The position numbers were made by a program. Positions 39,001 through 45,000 of a DNA stretch of 64,000 nt are shown here, piece after piece (the first letter of the stretch is position 1; each line of letters begins with the position of its first letter). The stretch is from Candidatus Geohabitans tengchongensis (GTDB lineage Bacteria > Sysuimicrobiota > Sysuimicrobiia > Sysuimicrobiales > Humicultoraceae): contig JAVKIH010000002.1 in NCBI GenBank assembly GCA_031459625.1, forward strand, positions 73,174 through 137,173. The letters run 5' to 3'.

Positions 39001-42000
39001 GCAGGGCGGTCGGGCGGCGCAGGGTCACTTCAGGCGGGCGATGACGGCGTCGGTGAGGTCCAGGCTGGTCACGTTGCTGATGTAGCGCGTGAGCACCACG
39101 TCGAGCCCCTGCTCGGCGGCCAGCGCCGCCACCTCGATCTTCACCTCGGCCAGCAGGCTGTCTTGGAGGCGCAGCCGCTGCTCCTGGAGGGCCTGCCGTT
39201 CCGCCTGCAGCTGCCGCTCCCGTTCGCGCAGCTGGGCCAGGTAGCGCTGCTGGGCCTCCTCCACCTGGCGGCGCAGCGCCCCCAGGATCTGGCGGCGCAC
39301 CGCCTGCACGCGGGCCTGGAAGCGGGCCTGCTGCGCCCGGGCCCGCTGCGCCGCCCGGGCCTCCAGCTCCCGCCGCTTCGCCTCGACCAGCGTGCGCACC
39401 TCGGCTTCGGCCTGGCGCGAGAGCCGCTCCAGCCGCGCCCGAGCCAGCTGCTCCTGCGCGCGCTGGAACTCCGCCAGCTGCTGGTCCAGCTCGGCGGCGC
39501 GCTGCCGGATCCGGGCGTCGCGCTCCGACTGCAGCCGGGCCAGCTCCTCGTTGAGGCGGCGCAGCTCCTCCTCATTGGCGAGCCCCACCACGTCCGCCTT
39601 GAGGCGCAGGTTGGCCAGCGGGTAGCGGTACTCCTCGATCACCTGCAGCTCGTAGGCGCGCAGCGCCTCCTGCAGGGCGGCGGCCCGCGCCTCGACGGCG
39701 CGGCGCACCTCGGCCTCGATCTGCCGCTGGCTGGCCTGGAGGCGGGCCCGCCGCTCCTCCTGGACCTGCCGGGCGTACCGGTCCAGGAGGGCCTGGTCGC
39801 GCTGCCGCTGGGCCTGCAGCTCCGCCTCGAGGGCCGCGCGGATCTGCCGGGCCTGGGCCGCCAGTTGCGCCTCCGCGCGGCGCTGGTCGAGCGGCGGTGG
39901 TGGCGGCGGCGAGAGGAGGGCCACCTCCACCGCCTGCAGGCGGCGGTTCAGGGCGTCGAGGGCGGGCCAGCGCGGGTGGCGCCGGGCCACAGCGTCGATG
40001 TCGACCACGGCAACGCGCAGCGGCCGCGCGGTGCGCGCGGCGGTGGGGGCGGGCCGGACCTCCCCGCGCCCCCCGGGCCGTCCGCCGCACGCCGCCAGGA
40101 AGAGGGTGGCCGCGGCGAGCGTGGCGGCGGTAAGGCGACGCATTCGGCCTACTTCCCGGTCAGGCGCTTGATCACCTGGTCGGTGAGGTCGACGCCTCCG
40201 AACAACACGACGGAGCGCTCCAGGACGATGCTGACGTTCTCGGCCCGGGCGACCTCCTCGACGGCCGCGCGCAGGTCACGGTCCAGCCCGCCCAGCAGTT
40301 CCTGGCGCTTCTGGATGACCTGCTGTTGCAGCTGGCGGTCGAGCTGCTGGCGCTGCTCGGGGGTGAGCCCGCGCGCCCGCTGGGCGAACTCCCGCTGCTT
40401 GGCCTGGAAGAACTCCTGGAGGGCGCGCTCCGACGCGGCCTTGCGCGGGTGCGCGTCCAGCGCCCGCTGCATGTCCACGAAGCCGATGACGAAGCTCTGC
40501 CCGAAGACCGGCGGCGCGCCCGAGCGGCCGAGCAGGACGACCGCCACGATGAGCACGGCGACCACGACGGCGGCTGCCACGGTGCGCAGCGTCCGCCGGG
40601 AATACCGGACCTGCGCCAGACGTTCTCCCAACGACCATCCCTCCTTCCGAGCTCGCAGGTGCGCGTCCGCGCCGTCCGCGCGTCCCCGTGCGCCGTGCGG
40701 AAGCACACCCATTCTACCCGCGCCGTCAACCGGCCCGCTGCCAGCGCGGCGTGCCCCGGCGCCTTCGTCGCCCGACCCCCCCTGCAGTGGTCCTCGGCAC
40801 CGTCATCACAGGTTGCTGAGCAGGCGCAGCCACACGTCGCCCCGGGACGTGGCCACGAGCTCGCCCGCCTGGAACTCGTTCAGCCGGTAGCGCACGCTGG
40901 CCTCCACGGTCCCCGCGCTGCTCTCCAGGGCCAGCCGCACGTCCACATCCGGGCTCAGCGTGTACGCCGTCCAGGTCAGGAGCCGCGGACGGTTGAGCGT
41001 CTTGGCCACGCCCACCTGCCACGCGGGCGTCGGGGTGACCGCGACCCCCAGGTCGTACCGCAGGTCGAGGGTGTTGGGGGTGACGGCCAGCTGGCCGAAC
41101 ACCTCCACCGCGCCGAAGAGACGGCCCAGGGAGACCTGGAGTTCCGGGGGCGGCGCCTGCGTGCCGACGGTGATCACCGCCTGGAGCCGGGCGCGGTAGA
41201 GGAGCGAGTCGGCCACCACCGTCACGACAGTGGTCTCCCCCACGCGCAGCGCGGGGCGGGCCACGATGTGGTACTGCACCACGGGCGGATAGGCGGCCAG
41301 GGTCGCGGCCACAAGCCCTTCCAGCGCGGCGCGGTGGGCCTCGGCGAAGGCGACCGGCAGCCCGCGCAGCGGGTCGGCGAAGGAGGCCACGACGGGAGCG
41401 TGCTGGTCGAGCAGGATCGTGGGGATGGACGACGAGCGGAAGCGCACGCCGATGTTGCGCACGACGCGGCTGTCGCGCGGGACCAGCCGGCCGGCCACGA
41501 CGGTCTCCGCCCCGGCCGCCAGCTGCGCTTCCAGGGTGTAACCGGGCACCGCCGCCTCGGCGACGCGGCGCAGCTCCGCGACCACCAGCGGTCCGGCCCA
41601 GTCCACCGCGGCCACGGGAAGCCCGGTGAGGAGGGTGGCCGCCGCCGGAGCCAGCTGTGTCGCCACCAGGGCCTCGAGTAGCGGCCACACCCGCGGGTGG
41701 ACCTCGGCGCGCGGGCGCAGGACCACCCGGCGGATGAGCGGCGGGGCGGGGCGCAGGCGCACCAGCACGGTGCTGGTCGGCCCCGGGTCGATCTGCCCCG
41801 CGGTGACCGCGTACCCGGCCACGACGCGGTCGAGGACGGTGCGCAGGACGGATTCGAGCTGGCGCTGCCCCTCGCGCACCCCGCCGACCGGCCGCCCCAC
41901 CAGGAGGCGGCGGGCCACCGCGTCCACCGTCTCCTCCAGCCGTGCCCGGATCGGCGGGGCGGGCACCGGCCCCTCCACCTCGAGGCGCACCGCCACCTCC

Positions 42001-45000
42001 TGGACGGCGGGCACCTGCGCGCGCACCGCCGGCGCCAGGGCAAGGGCACAGAGGAGCAGCGCGGCGACGCCTGCGGGAGCGGGGCGGGCCCTCAGAAGGG
42101 ATGGCCCAGGCTGAGCCACGTCTGGGTCCCCTCCGGTCCGAAGGCGACGTCGAGCCGGATCGTGCCGAGCGGCGTCCGGAACGCCGTCCCCACGCCGTAG
42201 GTCACCTTTAGCCCCTCCCCGCCGCCCAGCGGCGCCGCTCCCGCGTCCACGAAGACCACGCCGGTGAAGTCGCGCAGGAAGGGGGCGATCCCCCCAAGCG
42301 GCGTGCGGTACTCCACGTTCAGCAGGCCCATGGAGGGACCGCGGAAGCGGCCGGCCGGGAAGCCGCGCAGCGTCGTCGCGCCGCCGACGACGAAGAACTC
42401 CTGCAGGGGGAGGTCCCCGCCGCTCAGTCCGACCATGACCCGGCCGGCCAGCAGGGAGCCGCCGCCGAAGGGGAAGTACTGGACGTACTCGGCCACGTAC
42501 TTCTGGAAGGCGAACTCCCCGCCCAGGGCGGGGAGCCCGAGCTCGACGGAGAGGAGCTGCCGGCTCCCGCGGGTCGGTTCGATCTTGTTGTCCCGCGTGT
42601 CGCGCACCCCGGTGGCGGCCAGGGCGACGGTGCGGCAGCCGCCGGCGCCGGAGAGACAGCCGGGGTTGAAGAAGGTCGGGGGCGGAGCGGGCGAGGCGGG
42701 ATCGTTGGGGTCGAGGGGCAGCGGGTCGATGCTGGCCAGCTCCGAGCGCAGGCGCAGGGCGACGGTGGTGTCCGGAGCCACCGGCCGGCTGCCCTCGACG
42801 AAGCTCCCGGTGCGGGTGAGGTCGTAGCGTGACGTCAGGGTCCCTAGGACGAACTCCCGCTGGATCGCCGAGGTCTGGAAGAGGCTGATCTCCAGGCCGG
42901 TCCCGAGCGCGTCGAGGAACGGCTCGCGGAAGTTAAGGGAGAAGTTGAAGCGGGGGGAGGTCTCCGTCCCGGCGCCGAGTCCCACGCCGCGCTCCACGCG
43001 CAGGCTGATGGCCTGCCCGCGGCCCCGCCAGTTGCGCTCACCCACCTCCAGCGACCCCACCACGCCCTGGGCGGTGCTGTAGCCGATGCCGAAGGCGATG
43101 CGGCCGGTGCGCGCCTCCTGCACCTCGATCTCCAGTACGACCGTATCCGGCGTGGACCCGGGCCGCGGGCGGGCCTGGACGTTCTCGAAGAAGCCGAGCT
43201 CGAAGACGCGCTGCAGGTCGCGGTTCACCTGCTGGACGTTGAAGACGTCGCCGGGCTTGAGCGTGAGCGCCCGCCGCAGCACGAAGGGCTGGGTCTTGGT
43301 GAGGCCGCGGAACTCGACCGCCTCGATGCGCCCCTCGGCGATGCGCACCCGCAGGCGGCCGCCGTCGGCGGGAGTGAGGCCGGCGTCGGCCACCCGGGCC
43401 AGCACGTAGCCCCGGGACTCGTAGAGGCGCTCCACCGCCTGCGTCCCCTCGCGCAGCTGCCGGAAGTTCAGGACCTGGTGGAGCGGGACGCGCAGCGCCT
43501 GGAGGATCTCGGGGGTGGGGATCACGGTGTTCCCCTCCACCACCACGTCGATCACCACCGGGTTCTCCACGACCACGTACACGACGCGGACGCCCCCGGG
43601 TGCCCCCTGCACCCGGGCGGTGACGTCGGCGAACCAGCCCAGCTCGCCGATGGCCTGGACGTCGCGCCGGACCGTCTCCGGGTCCAGCAGGGTGGTGGGG
43701 CGCACCTGCACCTGGGCCAGGATCTGGTCGGTGGGGATGTGGCGGTTGCCCACCACCTCCACGGCCACGACCCGCGGCGCCGGTGTGGGGGCGGGCGTCG
43801 GCCCCGGCGTGGGGGTGGGGGTACCCCGCGGGGCGGGCGTGGGCGTGCCCGTCGGGGAAGGAGCGGGTGTCGGGGAGGGTCCCGGCGCGGGCGTCGCCGT
43901 GGGCGTCGGAGTTGGGGTCGGCCCGGGCGTCGCCGTGGGCGCCGGGCTCGGCGTCGGCGCGGGTGTGGCCGTGGGCGCTGGAGTTGGCGTGGGCGCGGGC
44001 GACGGCGTGGGCGCCTGGCCTGTCGCCGCGCGGGGAAGGACCGCGGCCGCCAGCAGAACCAGCGCGCAGACGAACACGCCAAGGGCCAGGGGGTGCCGGC
44101 ACCCGGAGGACCGCATGGGGAAGGCGATCAGCGCCCTCCCATCCTGAGGGAGCGCTCTGCGGCGAGCACCAGGTCGATCAGGTCACCCTCGGTGAGCACG
44201 GGCCGGGAGGCCTCGGTGCTCCCCCCGTCCCTCGCGCGCGGGCGGACCGACGGTGACGCGGTCCCGACGGGGTTCCGGGCGGGACGGGCGGTCCGCTGGG
44301 TGGTGACCACGGCCGGGGGGCGGGTCAGGCGGACCGGCGCCGGCACGGCGGGCGCGACCCGCACGCCGGAGGGTGCGGCAGCCTGGGCGGTGCCCGCGTC
44401 GTCGCTCAGGGCGACGAGCGCCAGCACCCGACCGACCTGGTGACCGAGCGTCAGGATCAGCGGCGCCGGTGGCGGCTCGCTGGCAGGCTGAGCGACCCGC
44501 CCCTGGGCCAGGAGGAGCGCCCCCGCCGCCACCAGGGCGACGGCCGCGGTCATGAGCGGCGCGCGTGGGGTGGCCGCGGGGGCGGTGGCCACGGCCTCCC
44601 GCGGCAGCAGGCGGGCGCGGTGCACCTCCGCCTCGGCCAGGAGCAACGTGAGCAGGCTGCGGGGCACGTTCCCTTGGGCGCACTCCTGCCTGGCCCGCGC
44701 CAGCCATCGCTCGGCGAACCCGATGTGGCGCACGATCTGCTGGGGCATCCCCTCGCGCACGCGGTTCTCGCCTCCTGCCTCCCCCATCACTCGCCGCACA
44801 GTTACTATCCGCCGTTCGCGGCGCATCGTCCCACGGCCGGAGCAGCCCGCGCCAACCGGCACCGGGCACGGGCCCGCCCCCGCCGCACGCCGGTGGGCGC
44901 CGGGCGCCACCCTCACGGGCGCGCCGCGTCCGCCGAGGCCGGCGGACCGGCCAGGACGGCACGGACGCGCTCGAGCGCCCGGCGCTGGATCCGGTAGAAG

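What a model noticed while it worked through the whole genome (the two positions that open the first line are those of the whole stretch)
40806..42119. Mini-Omp85: three POTRA domains on a 10-stranded barrel, encoded just after the sole Omp85/BamA gene
g01073 (437 aa, signal peptide, no Pfam/NCBIfam/Swiss-Prot match) is a divergent member of the Omp85 superfamily with an unusual build: three consecutive POTRA folds (beta-alpha-alpha-beta-beta; res ~40-123, 130-213, 221-304) followed by a C-terminal barrel of only ten strands (~130 aa, res 307-436) instead of the 16-stranded, ~300-aa Omp85 barrel. Its gene overlaps by 28 nt the end of the only Omp85-family gene of the genome (g01074, 3 POTRA + Omp85 barrel) inside a cluster skp x3 - lpxD - lpxC - fabZ - lpxA/I/B and next to tamB, so it is likely a partner in outer-membrane protein assembly of this phylum.
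Evidence so far: No family at E<=0.5. 99 homologues of 290-495 aa, all un-named, those with an organism label Armatimonadota/bacterium MAGs = CSP1-3. AF2 on 27 sequences: mean pLDDT 91.5, pTM 0.75, topology as stated. Foldseek vs PDB: all of the top 50 rows are TamA, BamA or Toc75 (best P. aeruginosa TamA 8us1 E 1.1e-9, prob 1.0). VIA-align: barrel part 308-436 matches 10-12-stranded barrels (designed TMB10 8uzl Z 13.1, 129 aa; KdgM 4pr7 Z 12.3; NanC Z 11.3) and TamA 8us1 over res 36-430 (310 aa aligned, Z 8.0). Only g01074 bears Pfam Omp85 in pfam.tsv; six-frame search of the genome with Pfam Omp85: one place only, C12:115313-116206 = g01074, open frame 696 aa. Profile of the 27-sequence alignment over 1.8e [...]
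(Added by a program. Inside this text positions count along the whole contig: contig position 73,174 is position 1 of the stretch shown here. "Call 12" and the like, gene names such as g00115 and contig names such as C1 are that model's own, and its searches are not shown. The text may have been shortened before it was handed on; [...] marks where a part breaks off. The agent that wrote the report below was given it as the finding of a first reader that could run no searches.)

Follow-up and report, generated by a model that had tools for sequence, protein, structure and literature searches.

The report
SonA barrel tied to sigma switch
This gene is a copy of SonA, a small outer-membrane barrel protein named in 2026; what is added here is that it also occurs in two other bacterial phyla and is kept or lost together with a neighbouring sigma factor and membrane protein, so it may help cells sense how well their outer membrane is being built rather than build it.

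Summary
The gene and fold are real: three POTRA-fold repeats on a 10-stranded barrel (AF2 pLDDT 97.6). The family is already published: it is SonA of Acetonema longum (F7NM22; 25% identity over 409 aa, E 9e-34; PMC13018214), and this scan met SonA before on other DNA. It is not an Omp85 member (10 strands; no profile match to the neighbouring BamA) and not phylum-specific: Sysuimicrobiota 54/94, Synergistota 104/121, Negativicutes 113/131 genomes. BamA is kept where SonA is lost. What travels with SonA is the upstream sigma factor and SonB, a single-pass membrane protein: SonA/SonB agree in 118/121 Synergistota and 130/131 Negativicutes. Where SonA is lost but SonB kept, SonB lacks its conserved C-terminal helix (0/31 versus 49/54 genomes). 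Best reading: SonA is the outer-membrane end of a SonA-SonB-sigma trans-envelope signal. Earlier scan notes had seen the co-loss in Negativicutes.

The parts
40806..42119 (-). sonA: 437-aa outer-membrane protein, signal peptide + 3 POTRA-fold repeats + 10-stranded barrel
42018..42119 (-). predicted Sec signal peptide, res 1-34; overlaps bamA end by 28 nt
   Evidence: sequence read by eye; homologues start MAHPG/MDQPG/MAQPG
41745..42011 (-). POTRA-like repeat 1 (res 37-125), the most conserved repeat (G102, R60, Y103, V95, P124); candidate SonB-binding site
   Evidence: weak covariation
41472..41741 (-). POTRA-like repeat 2 (res 127-216), invariant W174
41202..41468 (-). POTRA-like repeat 3 (res 218-306)
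40809..41198 (-). 10-stranded barrel (res 308-437), short loops, conserved charged residues on the polar face (E313, E339, E343, R395, E406, E420, R432)
42092..44116 (-). bamA (3 POTRA + Omp85), the only Omp85 gene found in the genome
44128..44748 (-). sonB: N-terminal helical hairpin (~60 aa), one TM helix, Pro/Ala-rich linker, conserved C-terminal helix; candidate anti-sigma (likely start ATG 44748; longest ORF from 44916)
44506..44556 (-). SonB hydrophobic (TM) helix, res 65-81
44143..44196 (-). SonB C-terminal helix, res 185-202, present with SonA and absent without it
44913..45599 (-). short sigma-70-family factor (regions 1.2, 2, 4), co-lost with sonA/sonB
45642..50018 (-). tamB
38606..40712 (-). 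three skp/OmpH-like genes after sonA

Best explanation
The protein is the Sysuimicrobiota orthologue of SonA (shown by sequence, about 0.97 sure). It is a small integral outer-membrane barrel with a three-POTRA periplasmic arm (predicted here; membrane association measured for the A. longum homologue). Most likely it is not an insertase but the outer-membrane end of a three-part module with SonB and the adjacent sigma factor. Inferred steps: SonB sits in the inner membrane with its N-terminal hairpin in the cytoplasm, where it holds the sigma factor; its 100-130-residue flexible tail crosses the periplasm; its C-terminal helix docks on SonA's POTRA arm, probably repeat 1. SonA, a low-copy BamA client made from the same operon, can hold that helix only once it has been assembled into the outer membrane, so it reports on assembly capacity; an undocked SonB tail releases the sigma, which raises transcription of the bamA-skp-lpx cluster. 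The layout works like cell-surface signalling (outer-membrane transducer, inner-membrane sigma regulator, sigma) though no part is a homologue. Shown: identity, fold, gene order, co-loss. Inferred: both contacts, the signal and its direction.
For: Co-occurrence, whole genomes: Synergistota 103 both, 15 neither, 3 discordant of 121; two of the three are contig ends (G212, G180) and the third (G136) keeps only the N-half match and a degenerate helix. The 15 lack the sigma orthologue (best E 1e-20 or worse, against 8e-61 or better in 11/11 SonA+ controls), 12 of them have Omp85. Negativicutes 112 both, 18 neither (one of these has a spurious E 9.6e-4 SonB hit), 1 discordant at a contig end, of 131; 18/18 negatives have Omp85; no sigma, sonB or sonA in 17 bamA loci read, tamB directly before bamA in 15. 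Sysuimicrobiota: 49/54 SonA+ genomes have SonB reaching the C-helix; 31/36 genomes of the SonA-free families keep SonB's N-part and 0/31 reach the helix; 14 such ORFs read whole end in shorter tails (median 84 vs 127 aa) scoring at most 4.8 bits on the helix profile, against 8 or more in 77/80 further SonA+ loci. Negative loci fall into 14 groups on a BamA tree. The ORF before bamA in the locus that encodes F7NM22 has the same hairpin-TM-helix build. SonA is scarce next to BamA (9/15/14 vs 148/167/152 counts) and was not pulled down with it. Six of the ten best SonA-SonB column pairs join repeat 1 to helix positions 197-200.
Against: No binding is shown, for SonA-SonB or SonB-sigma. The covariation test is weak: Neff 68, its within-SonA top pairs look like phylogenetic noise, and the shuffles do not keep sub-phylum kinship. 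Co-loss of neighbours can come from block deletions, although bamA lies between sonB and sonA and is kept. SonB matches no anti-sigma family. The SonB profile was built from SonA+ sequences only, and 12 of the 20 Sysuimicrobiota 'further' loci share contigs with its training set. The helix-only loss rests on two Sysuimicrobiota groups and one Synergistota genome. Sigma and SonB's N-part persist without SonA in 14 loci, so SonA is not required for them. sonA always follows bamA, not sonB. No promoter or regulon was found. Genome-wide absence of the sigma was not tested in Negativicutes.
Confidence: 0.5

Rival explanations
1. SonA is an accessory subunit or helper of BamA in OMP assembly (first reader; the model favoured in PMC13018214), its POTRA arm handing substrates over or its barrel seeding the membrane.
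For: Directly after bamA in 98/98 loci that hold both genes, partly redundant, overlapping here by 28 nt; POTRA fold; co-expressed with BamA and liposome-inserting in A. longum.
Against: BamA kept without SonA in 33/36 Sysuimicrobiota genomes of families f4, f5, f7, 13/17 Synergistota and 18/18 Negativicutes; co-IP and cross-linking negative (low sensitivity: TamB and Skp were not recovered either); about 10-50-fold lower counts; reviewers saw no experiment for the role; does not explain co-loss with sigma and the SonB helix.
Confidence: 0.18
2. SonA and SonB form a structural inner-to-outer-membrane bridge or tether; the sigma factor only regulates the operon and is lost with it.
For: Same co-loss data; SonB's long flexible tail could span the periplasm.
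Against: SonB's conserved cytoplasmic hairpin is kept with the sigma even where SonA and the helix are gone (14 loci), and all three vanish together in 3 further loci; low abundance suits a sensor better than a tether.
Confidence: 0.17
3. SonA stands in for TamA as the outer-membrane dock of the TamB lipid bridge.
For: Three POTRA domains as in TamA, whose POTRAs bind TamB (PMC12800296); tamB in the cluster; SonA barrel profile matches the TamB C-terminal strands (probability 93%, E 3e-7, 81 columns).
Against: tamB is kept where SonA is lost; in 30 SonA+ Synergistota only 10 give a weak TamB match, none beyond position 211 of 381; the strand similarity may be a generic hairpin pattern, since designed barrels match too and the single-sequence search gives E 6.3.
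Confidence: 0.08
4. The C-terminal barrel is a soluble nitrobindin-like ligand-binding domain and the protein is periplasmic.
For: Soluble barrels score Z 10-11; C-terminal residue is Leu in 96/135 homologues; the two strand faces are equally conserved (2.70 vs 2.74 bits), so that test did not discriminate.
Against: Membrane barrels rank first (8uzl Z 12.8-13.6, OpcA 12.8, KdgM 12.5); one face 78% hydrophobic and 5% charged with aromatics at strand ends, conserved Glu/Arg on the other; homologue found in carbonate-washed membranes and protected by liposomes.
Confidence: 0.04

Closest known systems
SonA of Acetonema longum (UniProt F7NM22; Beskrovnaya et al., Nat Commun 2026, PMC13018214)
   Same: Full-length colinear homologue (25% identity over 409 aa, E 9e-34; profile E 6e-62); three POTRA + ten strands; order sonB-bamA-sonA-skp1.
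   Different: Here in Candidatus Sysuimicrobiota; the paper surveyed 36 Negativicutes, called SonB a putative outer-membrane lipoprotein, and its main text has no occurrence of 'sigma' or 'Synergist'.
Omp85 superfamily (BamA, TamA, Toc75)
   Same: Tandem POTRA folds before a C-terminal barrel.
   Different: 10 instead of 16 strands, no long loop or (V/L)RG(F/Y) motif (motif recalled), no profile similarity of repeats or barrel to the adjacent BamA, dispensable, low abundance.
Cell-surface signalling of PupB-PupR type (PMC7186176, abstract read) and RpoE/RseA (recalled)
   Same: Proposed layout: outer-membrane barrel with periplasmic N-terminal domains, single-pass inner-membrane regulator, adjacent sigma factor; RpoE likewise serves outer-membrane assembly genes (recalled).
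   Different: No sequence family shared; SonB ends in one helix, not a folded signalling domain; the sigma has region 1.2 and fits no curated subfamily; no TonB-dependent transporter, no protease tied in.

Membership tests
SonA family | Full-length sequence homology to F7NM22 | tested here: met
SonA family | Three POTRA domains plus 10-stranded barrel (predicted) | tested here: met
SonA family | Order sonB-bamA-sonA-skp1 | tested here: met
SonA family | Insertion into a membrane | not testable with these tools
   amphipathic pattern only; experiment exists for the homologue
Omp85 superfamily | 16-stranded C-terminal barrel (PMC11116518) | tested here: not met
   ten strands, 130 aa; profile vs BamA barrel probability 0.4%
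Omp85 superfamily | At least one POTRA domain | tested here: met
   fold: Z 7.5, first 17 rows POTRA; no sequence link to BamA POTRAs, best probability 6.7%
Omp85 superfamily | Long lumen loop with (V/L)RG(F/Y) motif (recalled) | tested here: not met
   loops of at most 7 residues; motif present in the window's BamA, absent from SonA
Omp85 superfamily | Lateral gate and insertase or translocase activity | not testable with these tools
   model coordinates not available; needs experiment
Sigma / anti-sigma trans-envelope signalling | Sigma gene followed by single-pass membrane protein with conserved cytoplasmic N-domain | tested here: met
   lipobox-like motif in only 1/41, 6/24, 1/20 and ~60 aa before the TM helix
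Sigma / anti-sigma trans-envelope signalling | Shared presence and loss of the three parts | tested here: met
Sigma / anti-sigma trans-envelope signalling | Physical contact between outer-membrane protein and regulator | tested here: inconclusive
   weak covariation only; no complex model
Sigma / anti-sigma trans-envelope signalling | Regulator binds and inhibits the sigma; regulated proteolysis; regulon | not tested
   no family match; no promoter motif

The most novel reading that the evidence does not exclude
SonA, SonB and the neighbouring sigma factor form an undescribed trans-envelope feedback circuit of at least three phyla (Bacillota, Synergistota, Sysuimicrobiota): a dedicated low-copy BamA client catches the C-terminal helix of a membrane-anchored anti-sigma once it is assembled, so that outer-membrane assembly sets transcription of its own gene cluster. 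It would be a POTRA arm used as a signal receptor, unrelated in its parts to RpoE/RseA or Rcs.
Probability: 0.42. Interest if true: 0.75.

Novelty: new member of a known kind. Interest (0 to 1): 0.5.

Why it matters
The protein itself is no longer new, but its function is an open question named by its discoverers. The genome evidence redirects it: away from a mini-BamA, towards a partner (SonB's last helix) and a regulator (the sigma) that can be tested with a peptide and a pull-down. If right, deep-branching double-membraned bacteria carry their own envelope-monitoring switch inside the conserved outer-membrane cluster, and the usual model (Veillonella parvula) is one of the lineages that lost it, which would explain why it was missed. 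The shared gene order in three phyla also bears on how old this cluster is.

Tried and rejected
Single-protein locus scans found nothing; one alignment was too diverse to scan. Word-based homologue searches with distant alignments returned only 16 and 7 proteins, and 14 of 20 distant representatives had no named member in their clusters or only a generic one, so the range beyond three phyla is unresolved (named: Anoxybacter fermentans, an 'Armatimonadetes' and a 'Bacteroidota' MAG label that I did not verify). No BamA or TamA among PDB sequence hits at E<=10. Pfam on 66 distant members: 13 single chance hits. Conservation of the two barrel faces did not tell in from out. No sigma-70 promoter or terminator at 40500-46000; 6-mer counts around the sigma gene gave no convincing motif. 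The one RNA run that holds the region gives a flat 41-kb contig identical to the window, most likely DNA in the library: no evidence of expression. SonA barrel-TamB strand similarity kept only as a lead. The SpoIVB-like proteases are not tied to the module: V. parvula keeps Vpar_0521 while tamB, bamA and skp are consecutive there. L014 shows no bamA in about 670 nt upstream; not followed up. The Supplementary Information PDF of PMC13018214 was too large to read and its spreadsheet was cut; they may bear on what the authors knew about range and SonB.
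Full report
Observation. The ORF is at 40806-42119 on the minus strand, 437 aa, and overlaps the end of bamA by 28 nt. 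It lies in tamB - sigma - small membrane protein - bamA - [gene] - skp x3 - lpxD - unknown - lpxC - fabZ - lpxA - lpxI-like - lpxA - lpxB - lptC/A/B/F. It has no Pfam or NCBIfam match. AF2 on 137 homologues gives pLDDT 97.6, pTM 0.88, three beta-alpha-alpha-beta-beta repeats and ten strands. Repeat 2 folded alone ranks POTRA chains in its first 17 rows of 48,161 (best Z 7.5, rmsd 2.9, 77 aligned). The barrel resembles 10-12-stranded barrels in general (8uzl Z 12.8, KdgM 12.5; TamA barrel 8.1).

Identity. A profile of 47 close homologues found 280 proteins at E<=1e-3 among 1.84 billion; one, P0143 (E 6.1e-62, positions 8-429), is UniRef100_F7NM22 of Acetonema longum. Pairwise: 25% identity over 409 aa, E 9e-34, colinear to the last residue. 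F7NM22 is SonA in PMC13018214 (read: abstract, passages, sections 11-14, part of the review file, spreadsheet rows): a ten-stranded barrel with three POTRA domains in sonB-bamA-sonA-skp1, missing from V. parvula and A. fermentans, protected by liposomes, not recovered with BamA. So the finding is a new member of a published family. This scan had filed SonA twice before on other genomes.

Not Omp85. The superfamily is defined by a 16-stranded barrel (PMC11116518, passages). Profile comparisons with BamA from 79 loci: SonA repeats match each other (96-98%), BamA POTRAs match each other (95-99%), but across the two the best is 6.7%, near the controls (up to 2.5%); barrel against barrel 0.4%. SonA is a separate triplication of a POTRA fold on an unrelated small barrel, not a cut-down BamA.

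Membrane or soluble. In the family, one face of the strands is 78% hydrophobic and 5% charged, the other 27% and 37%, with conserved Glu/Arg (faces were assigned by hydrophobicity, not from coordinates, and their conservation is equal). The last residue is L in 96, F in 26 of 135. The A. longum protein also ends in L and was found in carbonate-washed membranes. Reviewers questioned the liposome assay. An outer-membrane barrel is the likely reading.

Range. Single copy in 54/94 Sysuimicrobiota, 104/121 sampled Synergistota, 113/131 sampled Negativicutes; also Anoxybacter fermentans by source name. It follows bamA directly in 98/98 loci holding both (four flagged by the script's cut-off are adjacent; loci partly redundant; 8 loci lacked a bamA barrel match, mostly at contig ends). 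My searches found it outside Firmicutes in no paper.

What it is lost with. Families f4, f5, f7 of Sysuimicrobiota have 0/36 SonA but 33/36 Omp85; in 18/18 loci read, bamA runs straight into skp. The gene between sigma and bamA has a helical hairpin, a TM helix about 60 residues in, a Pro/Ala-rich linker and a conserved last helix in all three phyla; the ORF at this place beside the F7NM22 gene scores 98.9 bits on the profile, so this is SonB, and its build fits an inner-membrane protein better than a lipoprotein. Synergistota: 103 both, 15 neither, 3 discordant (two contig ends, one degenerate helix); the 15 lack the sigma orthologue; 12 have Omp85, and in 13/13 SonA-negative bamA loci lpxD follows directly. 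In 21/21 SonA+ loci read the order is sigma-sonB-bamA-sonA. Negativicutes: 112 both, 18 neither, 1 contig end; 17 negative loci show no sigma, sonB or sonA (one ends at the contig edge). Sysuimicrobiota: 49/54 SonA+ genomes reach SonB's helix (2 cut, 3 no match); 31/36 SonA-free genomes keep the N-part only, none the helix (tallies include unpublished G016 and G024); three loci lost sigma and sonB too. On a quick BamA-barrel tree of 127 rows the negatives form 14 groups (5, 7, 2 by phylum; L150 and L191 dropped by the filter; SonA+ Negativicutes there came from two families only, so the number is rough). bamA lies between sonB and sonA and is kept each time, so one block deletion does not explain it.

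Abundance. In A. longum, spectral counts are 9/15/14 for SonA against 148/167/152 for BamA in membranes and 6/2/4 against 253/200/207 in germinating spores; RNA means 6,793 against 89,708. That is not a one-to-one subunit.

Mechanism. Best reading (0.5): SonA is the outer-membrane end of a SonA-SonB-sigma module. SonB's tail docks by its last helix on the POTRA arm of assembled SonA; its cytoplasmic hairpin holds the sigma; failure to assemble SonA frees the tail and the sigma, raising expression of the cluster. This works like cell-surface signalling (PMC7186176, abstract) without shared families. The contacts, the signal and its direction are inferred. A covariation test on 131 paired loci put six of the ten best pairs between repeat 1 and helix positions 197-200 (top-10 mean z 4.4 against 3.7-4.0 in 12 shuffles), but Neff was 68 and the within-protein control was noise, so it is a hint only. 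No complex model could be made. Rivals: BamA helper (0.18), structural SonA-SonB bridge (0.17), TamB dock (0.08), soluble barrel (0.04).

Novelty. Protein: published in February 2026. Co-loss with sigma and SonB: not found in print but noted earlier by this scan for Negativicutes (seen after my own tests). Added here: the two further phyla with counts, the Synergistota losses, and the selective loss of SonB's last helix, which names the likely binding element. Other papers seen: PMC5007114 and PMC5491611 (passages; one section), PMC12800296 (passages), the rest as search listings. Verdict: real, correctly described, already named; interest 0.5 for the testable redirection of its function.

Noticed in passing
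window 44128-44748 (-): SonB, called a putative outer-membrane lipoprotein in print, has about 60 conserved residues before its hydrophobic helix and rarely a lipobox; it looks like a single-pass inner-membrane protein, possibly an anti-sigma.
   Followed up: yes
window 44913-45599 (-): Short sigma factor (regions 1.2, 2, 4) below every curated NCBIfam subfamily cut-off; annotated FliA/WhiG-type in A. longum and up-regulated with the operon in the paper's RNA table.
   Followed up: partly
window 35634-37538 (-): 634-aa secreted-looking protein with no Pfam or NCBIfam match between lpxD and lpxC; present in some Sysuimicrobiota loci and absent in others, independent of sonA.
   Followed up: no
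window 50232-54063 (-): Two tandem SpoIVB-like S55 peptidases upstream of tamB; a homologue was one of two proteins co-eluting with BamA in A. longum.
   Followed up: partly
window 45642-45975 (-): TamB's last strands match the SonA barrel profile (93%) but not the BamA barrel; shared ancestry or generic hairpin pattern.
   Followed up: partly
window 31712-34244 (-): Two lpxA-like genes flank the lpxI-like gene; related loci carry one.
   Followed up: no
window 43770-44020 (-): BamA has an 80-residue Pro/Thr repeat between signal peptide and POTRA1, and skp2 is a 372-aa coiled-coil-extended Skp.
   Followed up: no
Synergistota handles: Only 10/30 genomes give a TamB match, all weak and limited to the first 211 of 381 profile positions; canonical TamB may be missing or much diverged there.
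   Followed up: partly
L113-L124: Synergistota SonA often matches only from profile position 70-130, so repeat 1 is diverged or shortened there, and skp genes are absent from the locus (bamA-sonA-lpxD).
   Followed up: no
L147 (G136): Intermediate state: sigma and sonB kept, sonA gone, SonB last helix half degenerate.
   Followed up: partly
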